From: a virus
Lineage: Duplodnaviria > Heunggongvirae > Uroviricota > Caudoviricetes
DNA length: 24,040 bases
Reading direction: 5' to 3' (one strand)
IMG/VR virus record: IMGVR_UViG_2740892439_000001
Coordinates: 1 to 24,040 of that record
Below the pieces are notes generated by a model. The model was not told the DNA's origin. It ran no database searches and saw only the letters and a program-made list of their open reading frames with translations. Shown here piece by piece: positions 1,971 through 18,306 of the stretch. The first letter of the stretch is position 1; every line of letters begins with the position of its first letter. The position numbers were made by a program, and so were the translations under genes.

Positions 1971-3559
1971 ATGCCGTTACCATTCCCCTTCGATTTTAAA
2001 CATCCTGATTACCAGATGGTTTTTGAATGGCGGATGGAACGCTTACAGCGCATTCGCCAGAATCCTGAAATATTGCCTGCACTAAAACAGTTTTACCGAA
2101 CCAATCCGGCTCAGTTCATCATCGACTGGGGCATGACAACGGACCCGCGTAATATTGATTATGGCCTGCCGGTGACCATTCCGTTTTTACTATTCCCTAA
2201 GCAGGAGGAGTGGATCCACTGGATTATGGAACGCTGGGGTAATCGGGAGAATGGTATTACCGAAAAATCCCGTGAAATGGGGCTCAGTTGGACCGCGATC
2301 GGACTGGCCTGCTCGCTTTGTCTCTTCAACAAAGAAATGGTTATCGGTTTCGGCTCCCGTAAAGAGGAATACGTCGACAGCACTGGTGACCCGAAAGCAT
2401 TGTTCTGGAAGGCGCGCAAGTTCGTGGAAACACTACCTGTAGAGTTTCGCGGTTCGTGGAGCGAGAAGAAGCACGCGCCATATATGCGTGTTGAGTTTCC
2501 TGAAACTGGTGCCGTTATCAAAGGCGAGGCTGGCGATAATATTGGTCGTGGTGACCGTACCACGCTTTATCTGGTTGATGAGGCTGCATTCCTTCAGCGT
2601 CCTCTGCTGATTGATGCGGCGTTGTCACAAACCACCCGTTGCCGTATCGACCTGAGTTCAGTTAACGGCATGGCTAACCCGTTCGCTCAGAAGCGTCATG
2701 GCGGGAAGATACCGGTATTCACATTCCACTGGCGGGATGATCCTCGCAAGGATGAAGAGTGGTATCGCAGGGAATGCGAGAAAATCGATAATCCGGTGGT
2801 GGTGGCGCAGGAACTTGACCTGAACTACAGCGCATCTGCGGAAGGCGTCCTGATCCCGTCCGACTGGGTACAGGCTGCCGTCGACGCGCATATCAAACTT
2901 GGTATTCAGCCAACGGGCAAGCGACTTGGCGCGATGGATGTCGCTGATGAAGGCAGGGACAAAAATGCCTTTTCCACCCGTCATGGCTTCCTCCTGGAAA
3001 ATGTGCGGGAATGGTCCGGTGTGGGCAGCGACATTTACCAGTCTGTTGAGAAGGTCTTCGGCTTTTGCGAACAGGACAACCTCGAAGAGTTTCGCTTCGA
3101 CGAGGACGGCCTGGGCGCTGGCGTTCGCGGAGATGCACGAGCTATCAACGAACTGCGTAACGCTGCGCGCCGACCGTCAATACTCGCCACGCCGTTTCGA
3201 GGTAGTGGCGCGGTATTTGATCCGGATGATGAAGCTGTTCGCGGGGACAACGGGCAGGCTGCACGTCTGAACAAGGACTTCTTCGCTAACGCCAAAGCCC
3301 AGAGCTGGTGGCGGTTACGTAAACTTTTTCAGAATACCTGGCGCGCGTGGTTGAAGGTATGGCTTACAACCCGGACGAAATCATCTCAATCAGCAGTAGC
3401 ATGGCACTCAAAGATAAACTCATCATCGAGCTTTCGCAGCCGACCTATTCCATTAATGGTGTGGGAAAAATCGTTATTGATAAACAGCCTGATGGAACCC
3501 GGTCGCCAAACCTTGCCGACTCGGTGATGATCAGCTACGCGCCAATGAATTCAGCCTGA
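1971..3559 (+). CDS. terL: Terminase large subunit, interrupted by an apparent 1-nt deletion near 3345-3350 (frame 0 to frame 2)
   Basis: 518-aa ORF 1971-3527 with a nucleotide-binding motif region ([11 protein letters not shown]) and nuclease-like C-terminal half. Its last ~60 aa are low-quality, while the overlapping ORF 3347-3559 (frame 2) encodes a typical terminase C-terminus ([16 protein letters not shown]...[16 protein letters not shown]). The frames join if one g is restored in gcgcgcgtgg. Confidence 0.8.
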
Positions 3560-10695: not shown

Positions 10696-11841
10696 ATGGC
10701 ACAGGGCTTGCCTGTATCAAACGTTGTTAATGTTGATGTGATCATGTCGCCGCGTGCAGCATCAGGGCGAAATTTTGGTGCATTACTCATTCTCGGCCCG
10801 TCCACAATCATTCCGGTAAGTGAGCGCATTCGCCGTTATTCTGCCGCGGAAGATATTGGAAAAGATTTTGGCGTGGAATCACCAGAATATAAGGCTGCGC
10901 AGGTGTTTTTCTCACAATCACCGAAACCTCAGGAGGTTTTTGTTGGTCGTTGGGTGAAAACGAAGGGTGACAGCGAACAGGCCACGCCTGAGACGCTGGA
11001 GCAGGCTGTGAATGCCATGCTCGATTATACTTCATGGTATGGGCTGGGGATTGCAGACGATGAAGATATTCCGGATGCAGACTGGCTGAAAGTGGCTGCG
11101 GCGATCGAATCCTCTTCTGTAAGCCGTATTCTGGCGATTACGACAAGCGATGAGAAATGCCTGCAGACTGCATCCAGCGATGATTTGGCATCAAAACTGA
11201 AAACCGCCGGATATTCACGCAGTTTTATTCAGTATTCATCGGGTAATAAATACGCTGCGTTATCTGCATTTGGCCGGGTATTCACGGTTAATTTCAATGG
11301 CAGTAATACCGCGATTACGCTCAAGTTTAAGCAGGAGCCGGGTGTCGGGTATGAAACACTGACAGTCAGCCAGGCATCGGCACTTGATGCAAAAAACTGC
11401 AATGTATTCGTGTACTACCAGAATGATACGGCTATCCTCCAGCAGGGAGTGATGGCTAACGGCGATTTCTTTGATGAACGCCACGGCCTGGACTGGTTAC
11501 AGAATTATGTGCAGACCAACCTCTATAACCTGCTTTATACCAGCACCACGAAAGTTCCCCAGACTGAAGCCGGTATTACCCGACTGTTATCAAATGTTGA
11601 AAAATCACTGGATCAGGCCGTTCAGAATGGACTGATTGCTCCGGGCGTATGGAACGGGGGCGACCTTGGTCAGTTGTCATCAGGTGACACACTGCCCAAA
11701 GGTTATTACGTATACGCCCAGCCGCTGGATGAACAGGCACAATCAGAACGTGAAGCCCGTAAGGCTCCGGTGATTCAGGCTGCAATAAAACTTGCAGGCG
11801 CGGTTCATTACGCTGACGTACAGATTAACGTTGTTCGCTAA
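10696..11841 (+). CDS. Tail sheath protein (DUF3383-like)
   Basis: 381 aa; placed directly before the tube and chaperone genes as in contractile tails. Confidence 0.65.
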
Positions 11842-11851
11842 GGGGAAGTGA

Positions 11852-12292
11852 ATGTCTACCTATTCTTTTATGGATGTCACTGCGACGCTGACCGGCCCGA
11901 CCGGTTCGATTGACCTCGGGTACGGTTCTGCAAGTTCTGAAGAGGGGATTGTGGTTGCGATGGGCGGTCCTAAAAACACCATGACCATCGGTGCTGATGG
12001 TGAAGTGATGCACAGCCTCCATGCAGATAAAAGCGGGACGATTACCGTTAACCTTCTGAAGACATCACCGACAAATAAAAAATTGTCGCTGGCGTATAAC
12101 GCACAGAGCCAGTCTTCTGCCACATGGGGGAATAACGTTATCGTGATCCGCAACAAGGTCAGCGGCGACATCATCACGGCACGCAGTGTTGCGTTCCAGA
12201 AACAACCGGATAATGCCAACGCTAAAACCGGTAATACGATGCCGTGGGTGTTTGACTGCGGCAAGATTGACCAGGTTCTCGGGGAGTTTTAA
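11852..12292 (+). CDS. Tail tube protein (DUF3277-like)
   Basis: 146 aa between sheath and chaperone. Confidence 0.6.
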   Translation: MSTYSFMDVTATLTGPTGSIDLGYGSASSEEGIVVAMGGPKNTMTIGADGEVMHSLHADKSGTITVNLLKTSPTNKKLSLAYNAQSQSSATWGNNVIVIRNKVSGDIITARSVAFQKQPDNANAKTGNTMPWVFDCGKIDQVLGEF

Positions 12293-12295
12293 TAC

Positions 12296-12748
12296 ATGGA
12301 ATTCGAAATCAAAGGCGTGAAATATCGCGTGGCAAAACTCAGCGTTTTTGACCAGCTGAAAGTGACCCGCAAACTTCTGCCGGTACTGGCGGGAATGATG
12401 TCAGATTTCGGGAGCATTCGCTCCCGTTTGCCTGCTGACGGCAAAATCGACACCGTGAAATTCGAGCAGTTAAAACCGGTGTTTGAAACCATGCTCCCGC
12501 GTATCGCTGAGGAACTGTCTTCCCTGACCGAAGATGACACCAGTGCGATTATTCATCCCTGTCTTGCGGTGGTATCGCGGCGTCATATGGACGGATGGGT
12601 TCCGGTATTTACCCAGGGCGAACTGATGTTTGATGATATTGACTTGCTGGTCATGCTGCATCTGGTGGCGCGGGTGGTCGCCGATTCGCTGGGAAATTTT
12701 TTGCCTACACCCCTTACCAGCACGACGCAGAGCCTGCAACAGGGCTGA
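12296..12748 (+). CDS. Tail assembly chaperone (gpG-like, zero-frame product)
   Basis: 150 aa; immediately upstream of the tape measure gene; contains the slippery site near its 3' end. Confidence 0.7.
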   Translation: MEFEIKGVKYRVAKLSVFDQLKVTRKLLPVLAGMMSDFGSIRSRLPADGKIDTVKFEQLKPVFETMLPRIAEELSSLTEDDTSAIIHPCLAVVSRRHMDGWVPVFTQGELMFDDIDLLVMLHLVARVVADSLGNFLPTPLTSTTQSLQQG

Positions 12749-12936
12749 CGTTTAACAGCCTGCCGGACGGGCTGTCTTACCTTCTCAATCCGGTTGACGC
12801 CGGGTTAATTCCTTATACAGCACTTAAAGATGGCTCTGTCGATTTGTACGACATTGCTCTCTTGAATGACCATCTGGCGGTAAAAGCGGATAACCAGCGG
12901 CGCATTGAGAAATGGAGAGAGGATAATGAACGCTGA
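12296..12936 (+). CDS. Tail assembly chaperone frameshift product (gpGT-like), made by -1 ribosomal frameshift at 12691-12703
   Basis: After a -1 slip, the frame is open for 79 codons from 12697 to the tga at 12934-12936, exactly filling the apparent 178-nt gap before the tape measure ATG at 12926. Confidence 0.65.
12691..12703 (+). promoter_or_regulatory. Programmed -1 frameshift slippery sequence G_GGA_AAT followed by T_TTT_TTG
   Basis: In the chaperone frame the codons are ctG GGA AAT TTT TTG; both overlapping heptamers fit the X_XXY_YYZ pattern. Confidence 0.6.
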
Positions 12937-14911
12937 AACTATTAAAGATTTCCTCGTCTCGCTTGGCTTCAGTGTGGATGATGCTGGAGCAAAAAAATTC
13001 GGTTCTGTCCTCGCCGGTACAACTGCAAATGTCATCAAAATGGGACTGGCCGTTGAAGGAGCTGCACTGTCCGTGGTGGCCTTTACGGCTAAGATTGCCT
13101 CCGGCCTGGATAATCTTTACTGGGCGTCACAGCGCACTGGCGCGACAGTACAGGGAATTCAGTCTATTGGCTATGCGGTTTCGCAGGTTGGCGGCAGCGT
13201 GGACGCTGCGCGATCTTCTCTGGAAAGTCTCTCCCGGTTTATTCGTAACAATCCCGGGGCAGAGGGATTTCTGAATCGCCTGGGGGTACAGACACGGGAT
13301 GCCAGCGGCAACATGCGCGACATGGCCGCTATCTTTACGGGTGTCGGACAGAAGCTCAGCAGCATGCCGTATTACCGGGCTAACCAGTATGCGCAGATGC
13401 TGGGCATTGACGAAAATACCTCATGCGATGCGCCGGGGTGTGGGTGATTTCTCCGGGCAGTACAGCGCAATGGCGAAAGCTATCGGCTTCAATGCTGACG
13501 AGGCGGCCAGAAGCTCCAACAAATTCATGACCTCCCTGCGCGAGTTCGGCGCGATGGCAGGCATGGCCCGTGACAAAATCGGCTCTAATCTTGCTGGTGG
13601 TCTGGCGGGTTCGCTGGACACACTGCGCCGCCACATCCTCGATAACTTCCCGCGCATCGAGCAGACCCTGACGAAAGCCATAAAAGGCATTCTGGCGCTC
13701 GGAGACATCATCGGGCGGCTGTTCTTCAGGCTAATTGAGGGAACATCCAGCCTTATCACCTGGTGGCAATCGCTGGATAAGCAAACGCGGGAGCTCATCT
13801 CGCTGTTTGGCGCGCTGACGATTGCGCTGCGCATTCTGAACAGTACGTTCTGGATGTCGCCGATTGGCCTCATTACCGCGCTGGCGGCGGGGATTGCCCT
13901 TCTGTGGGAGGACTATCAGACCTGGAAGGAAGGCGGCGACAGCCTGATTGACTGGGGCAAGTGGAAGCCGGAGGTCGATGCCGCGCTGAAGATGGTTCGT
14001 GGCCTGAAAGGGTCTGTTAATGAACTGGCGAAAGCGCTGGCGAAACTGCTCAATATTGACCCCAAATCATGGTCCCTGAAGTGGGATTTCAGCAACTTCA
14101 TCGACCAGATGGGCGAATTCAGCAAAATGCTGAACATGATCGCCGACCTGCTCAACGCTATCAAAGATGGCCGCTGGGCTGATGCCGTCAGCATCGGCAA
14201 ACAGATACTTAATCAGGCAGCGAAAATCCGTCAGCGATGCCGATGGTTACAGACAGCGCTAACAGTACTGCCGACTGGATTAAAGAGCACTGGGGATTCG
14301 ATCCCCGCAGTGTGGGCCGGACGGTACGCGGCTGGTTTGGTGATGATGAGCCGGAACAATATGCACAGGCTACGAAACGAGGAGAACGGAATAACAATCC
14401 GGGAAACCTTAATTTTGCTGGTCAGGCAGGGGCTTCTCTTGAACGCCCGGGCGGGCGATTTGCCAGATTTGAAACTGCTTTTGATGGATTACGGGCTCTT
14501 GCTCGTCAGTTAATGCTGTACGCCGGACGGGGAATAAACAGTGTGGAGAAAATTATCTCTACCTGGGCACCTGCGTCTGATAATAACAACACAACTGCGT
14601 ATATCAGGGCTGTATCGCAACGACTGGGAGTGGATCCCCGGGCTGCCCTGAATATGAGCGATCCGCAAACCATGTCAGCATTGATGAGCAGCATTATCCA
14701 GCATGAAAATGGAAGAAATATCTATTCTCGAGAGCTGATTAATAAGGCTGCCGTGGCGGGAATTAGTGGCAAAATGACAGAGGTTAACCAGCAAAATACT
14801 TACCACATTTACGGTGGCGGAGATCCGCACGCTGTCGGTAATGAGGTTGCACGTCGGCAACAGTCTGCAAATGCTCAGGTCATGCGAAGTAATCAGGTGA
14901 GGGTGGGTTAG
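12926..14911 (+). CDS. Tail tape measure protein, split over three frames by two apparent 1-nt indels (near 13433-13438 and 14213-14237)
   Basis: ORFs 12926-13447 (frame 2), about 13437-14513 (frame 0) and 14237-14911 (frame 2) are contiguous. The middle part has hydrophobic segments and a coiled-coil-like feel typical of tape measure proteins. The junctions give continuous protein if one g is removed from ccgggg and one base is added near 14230. Confidence 0.75.
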
Positions 14912-15498
14912 TGGATATTCTCTCTACACTTTTTCATCAGCAGAGCAGAAAAATAGGAATGATTGTTCCCAGTGTTGTTATTTCAGAGAAGCATACAGAT
15001 ATGCTTGAAATAACAGAGCATCCGGTAGAGGTCGGGGCCGCTGTCGCTGATCATGCCTATAAAAAACCGTCAGAAGTGGTGATGGAGGTTGGTTTCGCCG
15101 GTGGCGGCGCATTGCTGGATTTTGCCAGTAATCTGACGGCTACCAGCCTGCTCGGCCTGAGTCCTCAGCAGACGTATCAGGAGCTACTGGATCTGCAGGA
15201 AAGCCGTATCCCCTTCGATGTGGTAACCGGTAAACGACTGTACAGCAACATGTTGATCCGGGCGCTGGAAGTGACGACGGACAAGACAACCGAAAACGTC
15301 CTGTCCGCCGTCCTCACCCTGAGGGAGGTCCTTATCTCCCGGACACAGCAGATTACCGTCGCGGATAAAACCAACATGAAGGAAGGGGCCAGCACGTCGG
15401 CGGTACAGAACAGCGGCAACAAAACCACAAAGCCTCCAGATACTTCACTGCTGAAAAGCATCACGGGTAACGTGGCGTCATTACTGGGGGGCGGCTAA
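14911..15498 (+). CDS. Tail/baseplate assembly protein (hypothetical)
   Basis: 195 aa; GTG start overlaps the tape measure stop (TAGTG). Confidence 0.5.
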   Translation: MDILSTLFHQQSRKIGMIVPSVVISEKHTDMLEITEHPVEVGAAVADHAYKKPSEVVMEVGFAGGGALLDFASNLTATSLLGLSPQQTYQELLDLQESRIPFDVVTGKRLYSNMLIRALEVTTDKTTENVLSAVLTLREVLISRTQQITVADKTNMKEGASTSAVQNSGNKTTKPPDTSLLKSITGNVASLLGGG

Positions 15499-15800
15499 TG
15501 ACAATTCAGGAAATTCCGCTGACAGCGGACAACCAGCAGTTCAGCATCGTCTTAGGTGGTGTTACCTGGCGGATTAGCATCATATGGCGCGATCTTTACT
15601 GGATTATGGACCTGCAGAACGACAGAGGGGAGCCGGTAATCTCCGGTATTCCTCTCGTCACTGGCGCTGATCTGCTGGCGCAGTACGCCTGTATGGGGCT
15701 TGGTTTTAAGCTGGTGGTGGTCTGCGATGACAACACACAGGATTATCCCTCGAAAACTGATCTGGGTGGCCGCAGTCATTTACTGGTATCAACGGAGTAA
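15498..15800 (+). CDS. Small tail/baseplate protein (hypothetical)
   Basis: 100 aa; TAATG coupling. Confidence 0.5.
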   Translation: MTIQEIPLTADNQQFSIVLGGVTWRISIIWRDLYWIMDLQNDRGEPVISGIPLVTGADLLAQYACMGLGFKLVVVCDDNTQDYPSKTDLGGRSHLLVSTE

Positions 15801-16869: not shown

Positions 16870-17400
16870 TTGAATAAGAAAGCCATTTTTATTGCAATAA
16901 GTTTACTTGTTCCGATGTCGGGATTAGCCGCTCCTGGGAAGTATGAAAAAATGGCTGTTGATTTAATGGATCAGCAAAAGTTTACGCAGTGGCAACATTA
17001 CGCCTCTGCTACTCCTTTTTTCGCTATGAATGGTCGCAGATTCGCCATGACCATTGATGATTTCGCGGATATAGTCAGCAACTCCTTTCAAGAATGCGAA
17101 GATCTGGATGCCTACACCAATCGGAAAGGAACTACGGATGATTGTAAGTCCTATGTTTACAAAGGCATAAAGGAGTGGGTAAACCTCTCTCAAGATAAGT
17201 CTGTTAGCGATACAGCATGGAAAATGGGCCAGCGCTATGCTTCAACACACGTAATCCTATTGCCCATAAAAACGCATGGGATTTCAATGGGATGGCGGCC
17301 GGTATTCGCGTTGCTAAATCTCAAGGTTATTAAGTCATGGATGCGCCGAAAATCATCGGATCTTTCCCGTGTAAAAAAGTGGCTGGGCGATGATTTTTGA
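16870..17400 (+). CDS. Accessory secreted protein with N-terminal signal peptide (function unknown)
   Basis: TTG start with a ggtgggga SD 6 nt upstream; N-terminus (M)NKKAIFIAISLLVPMSGLAAPG is a typical Sec signal; mature part has two Cys; about 33 percent GC in the first 60 nt versus about 70 percent in sampled structural-gene sequence. Confidence 0.55.
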   Translation: MNKKAIFIAISLLVPMSGLAAPGKYEKMAVDLMDQQKFTQWQHYASATPFFAMNGRRFAMTIDDFADIVSNSFQECEDLDAYTNRKGTTDDCKSYVYKGIKEWVNLSQDKSVSDTAWKMGQRYASTHVILLPIKTHGISMGWRPVFALLNLKVIKSWMRRKSSDLSRVKKWLGDDF

Positions 17401-17558
17401 CGTCCATAATATTATGGATGAACTGTTGCCAATTGCGCTAATTTTAACAAAATAATACTGGTTAACGCATTTTTTGAACCATCTGTACACAGTAGTTGTC
17501 TATACTTTACCTTAAAGGTAAACTCTGCGCTCCACTGATGTTCACTATGGGAGGGGAT
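17401..17558 (+). promoter_or_regulatory. AT-rich intergenic region with promoter-like hexamers and two palindromes (17404-17417 and 17506-17522)
   Basis: ccataatattatgg is a perfect 14-bp palindrome; tttacctt-a-aaggtaaa has perfect 8-bp arms. Candidate sigma70 elements: ttgtct (17496-17501), 17-nt spacer, taaact (17519-17524). gggagggg SD precedes the ATG at 17559. Confidence 0.4.
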
Positions 17559-17798
17559 ATGAGGGAAATCGTTAATCGTTACTTAGCCGCTGCCGGTAGT
17601 GTTATGGACATTATGCCGACTACAGATTACTGGCAATATGCTGCTTCTGGATCTGATTGTCGGGCAATAAGAAGTGATGTTAAAGTCATTGCAAGTGACA
17701 TGAACAGAGTTATCAGGTATGAGTTCAAAACCCCGCAAGCAGGCGGCCGTTCTCAAAAAGCGTCAGGAAAACAAAGCGTCGCAAAAAGCCGTTCCTGA
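17559..17798 (+). CDS. Small hypothetical protein (accessory cassette)
   Basis: ATG at 17559 with a strong SD; about 80 aa; the last ~27 codons overlap the next gene and look low-complexity, so the true 3' end is uncertain. Confidence 0.4.
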   Translation: MREIVNRYLAAAGSVMDIMPTTDYWQYAASGSDCRAIRSDVKVIASDMNRVIRYEFKTPQAGGRSQKASGKQSVAKSRS

Positions 17799-18291
17799 TT
17801 CGGATGGTATCGACGAAAATATTGATTCCTCGGAATATGATGAGTCTCAGGAAGTAGTGGAAAAGCTGTCTGCAGTTGCCAACCTTGATCCTGAGCTAAA
17901 ATCGAAGTTAACACCTGAACTTCTTGAGAGAGTTTCTAAGAATCCGAAGGTTATTGCCATGTTTCAGCAGGAGTCTTTTCAGGGACCACTCCCACCTCCT
18001 GCTATGCTCTTACAATATAATCAAATATTACCCGGCGGCGCTGAGAGAATTTTCAGGCTAACCGAAAAAGAGCAAGAGCATAGGCATAAGACGCAAAGCG
18101 ATGCATTACTTGGTGCGGTTTCACGCGACAAACGTGGGCAATGGATGGGATTTTGCATTGCAATGGTAGTGCTTATAATGGCTGCGTTTTTTGCTAATCG
18201 CGGTAACACTTGGTTCGCAGGTACTCTTGCTACTTTAGATCTCGTAGGATTAACTACAGTGTTTGTTTATGGTAGGAAGAAACCTAAATAA
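17719..18291 (+). CDS. DUF2335-like membrane protein (charged N-terminal domain plus two C-terminal transmembrane helices)
   Basis: 190 aa; motif GPLPPPAMLLQYNQILPGGAERIFRLTEKEQEHRH recalled as the DUF2335 signature; hydrophobic stretches WMGFCIAMVVLIMAAFFA and WFAGTLATLDLVGLTTVFVY; followed by a terminator. Confidence 0.6.
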   Translation: MSSKPRKQAAVLKKRQENKASQKAVPDSDGIDENIDSSEYDESQEVVEKLSAVANLDPELKSKLTPELLERVSKNPKVIAMFQQESFQGPLPPPAMLLQYNQILPGGAERIFRLTEKEQEHRHKTQSDALLGAVSRDKRGQWMGFCIAMVVLIMAAFFANRGNTWFAGTLATLDLVGLTTVFVYGRKKPK

Positions 18292-18306
18292 TCCATACAT
18301 CCTTTC

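What the first reader, a model, noticed from the sequence alone, without database searches (positions are those of the whole stretch)
12691..12936. Conserved -1 programmed frameshift giving a gpGT-like chaperone fusion
The chaperone gene ends at 12748, leaving an apparent 178-nt gap before the tape measure ATG at 12926. In frame the sequence reads G_GGA_AAT then T_TTT_TTG, two overlapping X_XXY_YYZ heptamers. The -1 frame from 12697 is open for 79 codons and stops at 12934-12936, so the gap is an unannotated C-terminal extension. This matches the G/GT recoding signal of lambda-like tail chaperones (canonically GGGAAAG).
Basis: partly seen in the sequence, partly recalled or inferred. Interest (0 to 1): 0.5.

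Follow-up and report, generated by a model that had tools for sequence, protein, structure and literature searches.

The report
Tail chaperone -1 frameshift, confirmed, ordinary
The "gap" between a prophage's tail-chaperone gene and its tape-measure gene is really the second half of a longer chaperone made when a few ribosomes slip back one base on a run of Ts, which is the standard trick of tailed phages and is already annotated in related phages.

Summary
The feature is an ordinary instance of a well-known recoding event.

- **Gene and signal.** Window 12296-12748 encodes a tail assembly chaperone (Pfam Phage_TAC_15). Near its 3' end lies GGGAAATTTTTTG (12691-12703). It holds three in-phase slippery heptamers, not two: G_GGA_AAT, A_AAT_TTT and T_TTT_TTG.
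- **The -1 frame.** From the slip site it runs 79 codons to TGA 12934-12936, overlapping the tape-measure ATG at 12926. It has no ATG or GTG. It encodes a conserved domain (Pfam DUF6889, E 1e-20).
- **Comparative support.** In 52 distinct alleles from about 50 species, the in-phase T6 run is invariant. The 77-aa extension is kept in 49 loci, and variation falls mainly on third codon positions of the -1 frame.
- **Synonymous sites.** They are frozen at the L-G-N-F-L codons.
- **No separate start.** No conserved start codon precedes the conserved residues.
- **Distant phages.** Bordetella, Burkholderia, Acinetobacter and Ralstonia phages keep the two-frame layout with other heptamers.
- **Existing annotation.** GenBank records of phages Mulock and Magia already annotate the homologous frameshift product. 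RefSeq instead calls a 54-aa "DUF6889 family protein" with a CTG start.
- **Stimulator.** No conserved downstream RNA structure was found.

Nothing has been tested experimentally in this family.

The parts
10696..11841 (+). Tail sheath gene (context)
   Evidence: Pfam DUF3383 (also named E217_gp31_N) E 1e-100; phrog_205 tail sheath
11852..12292 (+). Tail tube gene, immediately upstream of the chaperone
   Evidence: Pfam PF11681 (KPP10_Orf10, also named Phage_Tube_PhiTE) E 9e-61
12296..12748 (+). Tail assembly chaperone, 0-frame product (150 aa, 16.7 kDa; the 'G'-like short form)
   Evidence: Pfam PF21822 Phage_TAC_15 E 1.5e-30 (cut-off 22 bits, score 106.7); phrog_1688 E 8e-65
12672..12678 (+). 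GGGTGGT, a Shine-Dalgarno-like element and possible upstream stimulator (inferred, untested)
   Evidence: Predicted duplex with the 16S 3' tail is -6.5 kcal/mol, in the top ~1% of 8-mers in the gene. Synonymous sites are suppressed: R126 is CGG in 44/47 alleles and V127 is GTG in 47/52. It lies 12 nt before G_GGA_AAT and 18 nt before T_TTT_TTG.
12691..12703 (+). Slippery run GGGAAATTTTTTG: three overlapping in-phase heptamers, G_GGA_AAT (12691-12697), A_AAT_TTT (12694-12700) and T_TTT_TTG (12697-12703)
   Evidence: Phase checked. The in-phase T6 run is invariant in 52 unique alleles. The codons are GGA in 50/52 alleles, AAT in 51/51, TTT in 52/52 and TTG in 46/47. Relative synonymous entropy is 0-0.24, against a gene median of 0.72.
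12704..12748 (+). Dual-coding overlap: the tail of the 0-frame product and the start of the -1 extension; 0-frame stop TGA at 12746-12748
   Evidence: The 0-frame stop sits 62 codons before the end of the -1 ORF in nearly all homologues.
12703..12936 (+). -1 frame extension (77 aa after a slip on T_TTT_TTG, plus the stop); the fusion product is 213 aa, 23.9 kDa (the 'GT'-like long form)
   Evidence: Translation. The 77-aa length is kept in 49 loci. Codon-position entropy past the 0-frame stop is 0.64/0.55/1.29. Fusion length and mass.
12811..12927 (+). DUF6889 domain within the -1 extension
   Evidence: Pfam PF21829 E 1.2e-20 on residues 37-75 of the extension. phrog_4364 E 1.8e-23 matches a wider span, residues 25-77.
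12926..14911 (+). Tape measure protein gene with a lytic transglycosylase domain; its ATG overlaps the end of the -1 ORF (ATGAACGCTGA). In this window it is interrupted by three 1-nt deletions.
   Evidence: phrog_2276 is matched in three consecutive pieces. Deletions at ~13418, 13424 and 14215 relative to the intact 662-aa homologue.

Best explanation
This is a programmed -1 ribosomal frameshift in the tail assembly chaperone gene of an E. coli-type temperate myovirus prophage.

**What most ribosomes do.** They translate 12296-12748 and release the 150-aa chaperone.

**What a minority do (inferred).** They slip back one base while decoding the run GGGAAATTTTTTG. The most likely site has tRNA-Phe and tRNA-Leu on T_TTT_TTG. 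A slip on G_GGA_AAT or A_AAT_TTT would give an almost identical protein, ...GNFF-AYTP... instead of ...GNFL-AYTP.... These ribosomes continue in the -1 frame to TGA 12934-12936. The result is a 213-aa protein with the same N-terminal 136 residues plus a 77-aa C-terminal extension carrying the DUF6889 domain.

**Presumed function (inferred by analogy).** In lambda G/GT and P2 E/E+E', the shared N-terminal part coats the tape-measure protein. The rare C-terminal domain recruits the tube subunit, so that the tail polymerises to the right length. Neither form ends up in the virion.

**What drives the shift.** It appears to depend on the slippery run itself, perhaps helped by an upstream Shine-Dalgarno-like GGGUGGU. 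No conserved downstream RNA structure was found.

**Shown here:** the signal, its phase, the coding nature of the -1 frame, the absence of an independent start, and deep conservation.

**Inferred:** that ribosomes actually shift, at what rate, at which heptamer, and what the extension binds.
For: - **Position.** The gene lies between the tube gene and the tape-measure gene, and it matches Phage_TAC_15.
- **Heptamers.** Three in-phase heptamers lie at 12691-12703. The 13-mer is unique in the window, with 0.02 expected.
- **Open -1 frame.** It is open 79 codons from the slip site and ends on the tape-measure start.
- **Conserved domain.** The -1 peptide matches Pfam DUF6889 (E 1e-20) and phrog_4364.
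- **Breadth.** Loci came from 55 genome-contig loci, about one genome per species, plus three phages, with 49-99% chaperone identity among the analysed loci. All 52 unique alleles have T6 in phase, and 49 loci keep a 75-78 aa -1 extension ending at the tape-measure ATG.
- **Coding constraint.** Past the 0-frame stop, entropy at codon positions 1/2/3 of the -1 frame is 0.64/0.55/1.29.
- **Synonymous suppression.** It falls exactly at codons 132-136. GGA appears in 50/52 alleles, whereas other Gly columns use mainly GGC. TTT appears in 52/52, whereas other Phe columns are about 50:50. TTG appears in 46/47, whereas other Leu columns are mostly CTG.
- **No start codon.** No start-type codon is conserved before alignment column 55, which is inside the domain. 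In the window there is no ATG or GTG at all.
- **Site bounds.** In L107 a -1-frame TAG lies directly before T_TTT_TTT, so the shift there must use the T-run. In L101, L104 and L111, stops lie 1-2 codons before GGGAAAT.
- **Distant phages.** All 40 phage records, down to 29% identity, have the two halves in two frames. Seven were inspected. Six have in-phase heptamers at the homologous LG(N/P)F or SxFF motif: G_GGA_AAT, G_GGT_TTT/T_TTT_TTC, T_TTT_TTT and C_CCT_TTT. The seventh, Edwardsiella ZHS, has none.
- **Annotation precedent.** GenBank MN098327 (Mulock) and MT701587 (Magia) annotate 'tape measure chaperone frameshift product' for the homologous gene.
- **Literature precedent.** P2 E/E+E' shifts at TTTTTTG without a downstream structure (PMC3091744). 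The lambda G/GT mechanism and 30:1 ratio are reviewed in PMC5009743.
Against: - No protein-level evidence exists for this family. No paper in the library mentions DUF6889, and the Mulock announcement does not discuss the frameshift.
- U_UUG is a weak shifter as a tetramer in E. coli reporter assays. U_UUU_UUG is not among the motifs that study lists as most efficient (PMC4066793).
- No conserved stimulatory RNA structure lies downstream (z = 0.23; 5 invariant pairs and no covariation).
- The window's own prophage may be defective or badly sequenced, with at least seven 1-nt deletions elsewhere including in the tape-measure gene. The signal may therefore not be in use in this particular genome.
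- The sequences compared are phylogenetically related, so the counts overstate independent support.
- The search pattern VADSLGNF selected for the amino-acid motif, though not for its codons.
Confidence: 0.87

Rival explanations
1. Transcriptional slippage. RNA polymerase stutters on the T6 run and adds one U in a fraction of transcripts. Standard translation of those mRNAs then gives the same fusion protein.
For: - The T6 run is the one invariant element among the enterobacterial alleles.
- Public assemblies contain T7 and T5-type length variants of this run. These produce an in-frame 213-aa fusion (P0001, L140) or +1 read-outs (P0005, P0018, P0066), so the run is indel-prone at some level.
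- A non-ribosomal mechanism has been proposed for the chaperones of T4-like phages (Vladimirov et al. 2022, cited in PMC12846349).
Against: - Six residues is short for productive slippage by bacterial RNA polymerase, which is usually described for runs of about 8-9 or more (my own knowledge, not tested here).
- Homologues without any long T-run keep the two-frame layout with in-phase heptamers. Bordetella IFTN9 has only G_GGA_AAT, Burkholderia has C_CCT_TTT and Acinetobacter has TTTT.
- Synonymous suppression also covers GGA-AAT upstream of the run. A heptamer model needs this; a homopolymer model does not.
- The T7 and T5 variants may simply be sequencing errors.
Confidence: 0.07
2. DUF6889 is a separate small gene, as RefSeq annotates it (54 aa from CTG 12772). 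It would be translated from its own non-canonical start, or by re-initiation after the chaperone stop.
For: - PGAP annotates WP_071819661.1 'DUF6889 family protein' at the equivalent of 12772-12936 in E. coli genomes.
- Gene callers elsewhere produce 43-78-aa proteins.
- The chaperone stop overlaps a -1-frame Leu codon (CTGA) at 12745-12748.
Against: - The window's -1 frame has no ATG or GTG. Its only TTGs lie inside the conserved domain and have no SD.
- The PGAP start is CTG with no spaced SD.
- Annotated lengths are inconsistent (43, 46, 50, 54, 58, 59, 62, 63, 73, 78 aa), so no start is conserved.
- No alignment column before 55 has a start-type codon in more than 16 of 48 alleles. Invariant residues P22, P31, L42, G45, D48 and L49 lie upstream of column 55.
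- The Leu codon overlapping the stop is TTA or ATA in other lineages.
- This model does not explain the frozen synonymous sites at the slippery run.
Confidence: 0.04
3. Artefact of this assembly. The two frames are really one gene, or unrelated frames, and the apparent frameshift comes from a miscounted homopolymer. This is the same kind of error that breaks other genes in this window.
For: The window has at least seven 1-nt deletions in short C/G runs relative to its closest complete relative. They disrupt TerL, the tape-measure gene and other genes.
Against: - Positions 12640-12940 are 100% identical to an independently sequenced E. coli genome.
- T6 is found in all 80 close viral contigs and in all 52 diverged alleles.
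- The 0-frame stop position is conserved.
- The errors elsewhere are in C/G runs, not T runs.
Confidence: 0.01

Closest known systems
Bacteriophage P2 E / E+E' tail chaperone frameshift
   Same: It is a contractile-tail phage. The gene sits between the tube gene and the tape-measure gene. [quoted passage not shown] No downstream stimulatory structure is present, and the shift yields a longer protein sharing the N-terminus (PMC3091744).
   Different: There is no detectable sequence relationship: the Pfam hits are Phage_TAC_15 and DUF6889, not the P2 GpE family. The proteins differ in size, 150/213 aa here against 91/142 aa in P2. Here the T-run is preceded by two further in-phase heptamers.
Bacteriophage lambda G / GT
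   Same: The arrangement and presumed role are the same. The short form is abundant and the long form is rare, made by a -1 shift on a heptamer beginning G_GGA_AA. The extension is in the -1 frame and ends at the tape-measure gene. No RNA structure is required (PMC5009743; the lack of a structure in lambda is from my own knowledge).
   Different: Lambda uses G_GGA_AAG, decoded with tRNA-Lys on AAG. Here the corresponding heptamer is G_GGA_AAT, a weaker type, and the invariant element is the T-run. Lambda is a siphovirus. The protein families differ.
Klebsiella phage Mulock CPT_Mulock_014/015 and Burkholderia phage Magia CPT_Magia_015/016 ('tape measure chaperone frameshift product')
   Same: These are true homologues, at 58% and 29% identity over the fusion. 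Both have the same two-frame layout. Mulock has the identical GGGAAATTTTTTG, and the joined CDS is already annotated in GenBank.
   Different: Magia uses C_CCT_TTT instead. These are annotations only: no experiment is cited, and the Mulock paper does not mention the frameshift.
Pakpunavirus / Vandenendeviridae TAC-N / TAC-NC frameshift (phage Adele)
   Same: It is a contractile tail with a KPP10-type tube. A poly-T slippery motif lies at the 3' end of TAC-N. The -1 frame is uninterrupted across divergent genomes, and the downstream ORF is routinely mis-annotated as a separate hypothetical gene (PMC12846349).
   Different: The motif there is GTTTTT in lytic Pseudomonas phages. Homology of the chaperones to this one was not tested.

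Membership tests
Tailed-phage tail assembly chaperone with programmed -1 frameshift (G/GT-type arrangement, Xu, Hendrix & Duda 2004) | The gene lies between the major tail/tube gene and the tape-measure gene. | tested here: met
   Tube 11852-12292, chaperone 12296-12748, tape measure from 12926.
Tailed-phage tail assembly chaperone with programmed -1 frameshift (G/GT-type arrangement, Xu, Hendrix & Duda 2004) | A second ORF overlaps the 3' end in the -1 frame, lacks its own start, and extends to the tape-measure gene. | tested here: met
   The -1 frame is open 12643-12936 with no ATG or GTG. No start is conserved in 48 alleles.
Tailed-phage tail assembly chaperone with programmed -1 frameshift (G/GT-type arrangement, Xu, Hendrix & Duda 2004) | An in-phase X_XXY_YYZ slippery heptamer lies in the overlap and is conserved among homologues. 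| tested here: met
   Three heptamers at 12691-12703. T6 is invariant in 52 alleles with synonymous suppression. Six of seven distant phages inspected have other heptamers at the same motif.
Tailed-phage tail assembly chaperone with programmed -1 frameshift (G/GT-type arrangement, Xu, Hendrix & Duda 2004) | Two proteins with a common N-terminus are made in a fixed ratio. Both are needed for tail assembly and both are absent from virions. | not testable with these tools
   This needs protein detection and genetics. No published data were found for this family.
Pfam PF21822 Phage_TAC_15 | The score is above the curated gathering threshold. | tested here: met
   106.7 bits against a 22-bit cut-off, E 1.5e-30, residues 6-138.
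Pfam PF21829 DUF6889 | The score is above the curated gathering threshold. | tested here: met
   The -1 peptide scores 73.4 bits against a 23.9-bit cut-off, E 1.2e-20, covering profile positions 2-40 of 40.
Lambda gpG/gpT or P2 gpE sequence families | Detectable sequence homology to those Pfam families. | tested here: not met
   A Pfam scan of the chaperone, extension and fusion at E <= 0.01 returned only PF21822 and PF21829. There was no NCBIfam hit and no PDB relative. A structural comparison could not be made because the AF2 model had pLDDT 39.7.
Stand-alone 'DUF6889 family protein' gene (RefSeq/PGAP model) | The gene has its own initiation codon with a ribosome-binding site, conserved among homologues. 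| tested here: not met
   The PGAP start is CTG at 12772. Annotated lengths elsewhere range from 43 to 78 aa. No start column is conserved.

The most novel reading that the evidence does not exclude
The signal may be a composite, structure-free frameshift cassette rather than a single heptamer. It would comprise a 13-nt run of three phased heptamers (G_GGA_AAT, A_AAT_TTT, T_TTT_TTG) plus a synonymously constrained Shine-Dalgarno-like GGGUGGU 12 nt upstream. Several consecutive slip opportunities would add up to set the short:long chaperone ratio. DUF6889 would then be the tube-recruiting 'T' domain for the E217/PhiTE-type contractile tail lineage, and the hundreds of 'DUF6889 family protein' and 'NTP pyrophosphohydrolase' gene calls would be annotation artefacts.
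Probability: 0.3. Interest if true: 0.3.

Novelty: already known. Interest (0 to 1): 0.15.

Why it matters
Biologically it adds little. Tail-chaperone frameshifting has been a textbook recoding case since lambda G/GT and the 2004 survey of dsDNA phages, and annotators of homologous phages (Mulock, Magia) have already drawn the joined CDS.

The practical value is for annotation. In RefSeq E. coli genomes the -1 ORF is called as an independent 54-aa 'DUF6889 family protein' with a CTG start. Older records name it 'NTP pyrophosphohydrolase', and Pfam lists the domain as of unknown function.

The comparative data here indicate that DUF6889 is the frameshift-encoded C-terminal domain of Phage_TAC_15 chaperones across Enterobacterales, Bordetella, Burkholderia, Ralstonia and Acinetobacter phages. 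That would let both entries be corrected. It also provides a well-sampled natural series of slippery-site variants for anyone studying stimulator-free -1 frameshifting.

Tried and rejected
- **Downstream stimulatory structure.** The single-sequence fold of 12691-12800 has z = 0.23. RNAalifold on 31 diverse homologues gave 5 invariant pairs, no covariation and -1.8 kcal/mol. There was no Rfam match at E <= 1. I rejected a conserved hairpin or pseudoknot.
- **Regulatory intergenic region.** There were no promoter-like sites, and one terminator-like hairpin (12787-12806), which is at chance level. Rejected.
- **Structure prediction.** The AF2 model of the fusion (P0001 with a 41-sequence alignment) had mean pLDDT 39.7 and pTM 0.28, so it is unusable. 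No fold search was run.
- **Other protein searches.** The PDB sequence search found no relative (best E 0.087). NCBIfam had no hit.
- **Natural in-frame fusion as 'Rosetta stone' evidence.** The only fused protein (P0001) comes from a single Logan contig with T7 instead of T6. I treat it as a homopolymer variant or error, not as independent support.
- **Literature.** No paper mentions DUF6889. The Mulock announcement is silent on the frameshift.
- **+1 frame.** It closes at 12755 and is short in distant phages. Rejected.
Full report
**Observation**

The window's + strand carries a run of phage morphogenesis genes. The sheath gene is 10696-11841 (DUF3383, also named E217_gp31_N). The tube gene is 11852-12292 (PF11681). 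A 150-aa ORF at 12296-12748 matches Pfam Phage_TAC_15 (E 1.5e-30) and PHROG 1688 'tail assembly chaperone'. A tape-measure gene starts at ATG 12926.

The stretch 12749-12925 has no called ORF. It is 177 nt long, not 178.

The sequence at 12691-12703 is GGGAAATTTTTTG. Positions 12691 and 12697 are third codon positions of the chaperone frame. The frame therefore reads CTG GGA AAT TTT TTG.

A third in-phase heptamer, A_AAT_TTT, bridges them.

The -1 frame is open from 12643 to TGA 12934-12936. That is 79 sense codons counted from 12697, and it overlaps the tape-measure ATG in ATGAACGCTGA.

**Is it more than chance?**

- The 13-mer occurs once in the window, against 0.02 expected from shuffles.
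- Only 3.5-4.8% of codon positions in the window's genes have a -1 frame open for 79 or more codons. The median is 9.
- Among 21 in-phase heptamers in 27 genes, only these three and one trivial case lead past the end of their gene. In the trivial case, at 15486, the -1 frame is simply the next gene.

**Is the -1 frame coding?**

The 77-aa peptide after the slip site matches Pfam DUF6889 (73 bits, cut-off 23.9, E 1e-20) and PHROG 4364.

I collected homologous loci from three sources:

- 55 genome contigs, from a collection holding one genome per species;
- 80 close viral contigs;
- annotated phages.

Among the analysed genome and phage loci, chaperone identity ranges from 49% to 99%. In 49 of them the -1 extension is 75-78 aa long. 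It ends on or next to the tape-measure start and is clearly alignable (LPxGE..L.RPV....L.dG.vDL.diAlmND.L...adN...i.kWR).

The exceptions are visibly damaged or rearranged copies: L092, L108, L127, L135 and L138.

Past the 0-frame stop, where only the -1 frame can be under protein constraint, column entropy at codon positions 1/2/3 is 0.64/0.55/1.29. This is the signature of purifying selection on that frame.

All 80 close viral contigs have T6 in phase. Of these, 68 have the 77-aa extension, 8 have 80 aa, 1 has 34 aa, and 3 run off the locus.

**Is the signal itself under selection?**

I made a codon-threaded alignment of 52 unique chaperone alleles. It has 57 columns with a conserved amino acid, whose median relative synonymous entropy is 0.72. 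The five codons L132-G133-N134-F135-L136 score 0.24, 0.12, 0, 0 and 0.06.

| Codon | Use at the slip site | Use at other columns for the same amino acid |
|---|---|---|
| Gly133 | GGA in 50/52 | mostly GGC |
| Asn134 | AAT in 51/51 | not compared |
| Phe135 | TTT in 52/52 | roughly 50:50 TTT/TTC |
| Leu136 | TTG in 46/47 | mostly CTG |

The peptide pattern VADSLGNF was one of the search seeds, so the amino-acid motif is ascertained. The codons are not.

Several alleles bound the shift site:

- In L107 the first heptamer is lost (GGT AGT). A -1-frame TAG sits immediately before T_TTT_TTT, so the shift there must occur on the T-run.
- L135, a damaged copy, also reads GGT AAT TTT TTT.
- In L101, L104 and L111, -1-frame stops lie one or two codons before GGGAAAT.
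- The 0-frame stop lies about 16 codons after the run.

No other in-phase heptamer lies in that interval in most loci.

**Independent start?**

In the window the -1 frame has no ATG or GTG. It has two TTG, at 12844 and 12862, inside the conserved domain and without an SD.

Across 48 unique alleles, no column before 55 has a start-type codon in more than 16 sequences. Residues that are invariant lie upstream of column 55: P22, P31, L42, G45, D48 and L49.

RefSeq/PGAP nevertheless annotates a 54-aa 'DUF6889 family protein' in E. coli genomes. Over 12640-12940 the DNA of one such genome is 100% identical to the window, and the annotated start corresponds to CTG 12772.

Other gene callers give lengths from 43 to 78 aa, and some records name the ORF 'NTP pyrophosphohydrolase'. 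Such scatter is what forced calls on a start-less ORF produce.

**Deeper conservation**

A tblastn search of the conceptual fusion against 50,697 phage records found 40 records. Every one had the two halves as two pieces in different frames, down to 29% identity.

I inspected seven distant ones. All keep a DUF6889-like -1 ORF running to the tape-measure gene. Six have an in-phase heptamer at the homologous LG(N/P)F or SxFF motif.

| Phage | In-phase slippery motif |
|---|---|
| Bordetella IFTN9 | G_GGA_AAT only |
| Acinetobacter AbTJ | T_TTG_GGA, G_GGA_AAT, A_AAT_TTT |
| Ralstonia PY059YO380 | G_GGT_TTT, T_TTT_TTC |
| Providencia PSTCR3 | T_TTT_TTT |
| Burkholderia Magia and BgManors32 | C_CCT_TTT |
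| Edwardsiella ZHS | no heptamer; only a U_UUU tetramer context |

The site therefore drifts in sequence but not in place or phase. That argues for ribosomal re-pairing rather than a homopolymer-specific process.

**Stimulators**

- The local fold is not unusual (z = 0.23).
- RNAalifold on 31 homologues finds only five invariant pairs and no covariation.
- There is no Rfam match.
- Promoter and terminator scans are at chance level.

Upstream, GGGUGGU (12672-12678) pairs with the 16S 3' tail at -6.5 kcal/mol, in the top ~1% of 8-mers in the gene. Its codons are also synonymously constrained: CGG in 44/47 alleles and GTG in 47/52.

It lies 12 nt before G_GGA_AAT and 18 nt before T_TTT_TTG. In L107 and L135, which lack GGGAAAT, a GGAG lies 12 nt before the T-run.

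This is compatible with a dnaX-type SD-like stimulator, but it is only a lead. The element also encodes the conserved R-V-V.

**Mechanism**

The best-supported reading is a programmed -1 ribosomal frameshift. It gives a 150-aa (16.7 kDa) short form and a 213-aa (23.9 kDa) long form.

The junction would be ...SLGNFL-AYTPYQ... if the shift is on T_TTT_TTG. It would be ...SLGNFF-AYTPYQ... if on one of the earlier heptamers.

Function is inferred from lambda and P2 (PMC5009743). The shared N-domain binds the tape-measure protein. The rare C-terminal domain recruits the tube subunit. The ratio is set by shift efficiency, and both forms are absent from virions.

The heptamer T_TTT_TTG is exactly the P2 E/E+E' site, which also lacks a downstream structure (PMC3091744).

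E. coli reporter work rates U_UUG as a weak tetramer and does not list U_UUU_UUG among the most efficient heptamers (PMC4066793). That fits the low efficiency expected for this class, but it gives no measured rate for this signal.

**Rivals**

- **Transcriptional slippage on T6 (about 0.07).** The T7 and T5 variants in public assemblies are in its favour. The homologues without a T-run, and the constraint on GGA-AAT, count against it.
- **A separate DUF6889 gene (about 0.04).** This fails the start-codon tests.
- **An assembly artefact at the T-run (about 0.01).** This is excluded by identity with independent genomes.

**Comparison with known systems**

The arrangement meets every in-silico criterion of the conserved tail-chaperone frameshift class.

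It is not a sequence-level member of the lambda G/T or P2 E families. Only PF21822 and PF21829 are hit, and neither NCBIfam nor PDB has a relative. A structural comparison was impossible because the AF2 model had pLDDT 39.7.

True homologues in GenBank already carry the joined CDS labelled 'tape measure chaperone frameshift product'. These are Klebsiella phage Mulock, with the identical 13-mer, and Burkholderia phage Magia.

An analogous comparative argument was published for Pakpunaviruses, which have the same tube type (PMC12846349).

**Verdict**

- The feature is a routine, already-recognised kind of recoding. Its novelty is limited to annotation: DUF6889 is the frameshift-encoded C-terminal domain of Phage_TAC_15 chaperones, and the RefSeq stand-alone calls are artefacts.
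- Interest is 0.15.
- Confidence that a programmed -1 ribosomal frameshift is the mechanism is about 0.87. The remainder is mostly transcriptional slippage.
- No experiment exists for this family.

Noticed in passing
window ~3345, 3554, 13418-13424 (two), 14215, 17239, 18492: There are at least seven single-base deletions, all in short C or G runs, relative to the closest complete E. coli prophage (NZ_CP026929.2). They truncate TerL (1971-3527). They split the tape-measure gene into three ORFs (12926-13447, 13299-14513, 14237-14911). One lies in the region homologous to the reference's spike-protein gene. No complete E. coli genome shares the tape-measure pair. The pattern suggests homopolymer under-calling in this assembly, or else a decaying prophage.
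   Followed up: partly
window 12772-12936; L001 3573-3737; L148 12241-12405: RefSeq/PGAP annotates the -1 ORF as an independent 54-aa 'DUF6889 family protein' whose start is CTG. Other records give 43-78 aa, and some call it 'NTP pyrophosphohydrolase', a name with no support here.
   Followed up: yes
L140 1895-1910 (Logan SRR23924998 contig): One public assembly has T7 instead of T6 at the slip site. This gives a continuous 213-aa Phage_TAC_15+DUF6889 ORF (P0001, junction GNFFAYTPYQ). Other database proteins (P0005, P0018, P0066) are +1-frame read-outs, as expected from a T5 run. These may be real length polymorphism or sequencing error.
   Followed up: partly
window 12672-12678: GGGTGGT is a Shine-Dalgarno-like element inside the chaperone gene with suppressed synonymous variation. 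It lies 12 nt before the first heptamer. In two lineages lacking GGGAAAT (L107, L135), a GGAG lies 12 nt before the T-run instead.
   Followed up: partly
window 15486-15498: An in-phase G_GGG_GGC heptamer lies 12 nt before the end of the baseplate gene 14911-15498. Its -1 frame is that of the next gene (15498-15800), which has its own ATG overlapping the stop. This is most likely a coincidence of ordinary gene overlap.
   Followed up: no
L096 (Chryseobacterium sp. 18061 assembly), L139 (Bacillus sp. AFS073361, 395-nt contig), phage record OM284015 (Elizabethkingia phage EKP1): Enterobacterial-type copies of this chaperone locus (69-75% aa identity) turn up in assemblies labelled as Bacteroidota or Firmicutes. 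This suggests contamination or mislabelling rather than true host range.
   Followed up: no
L148 17606-18022: The closest E. coli relative carries a 'type II toxin-antitoxin system YafO family toxin' gene between the tail and baseplate genes. The corresponding part of the window (about 17400-18300) aligns poorly to that relative.
   Followed up: no
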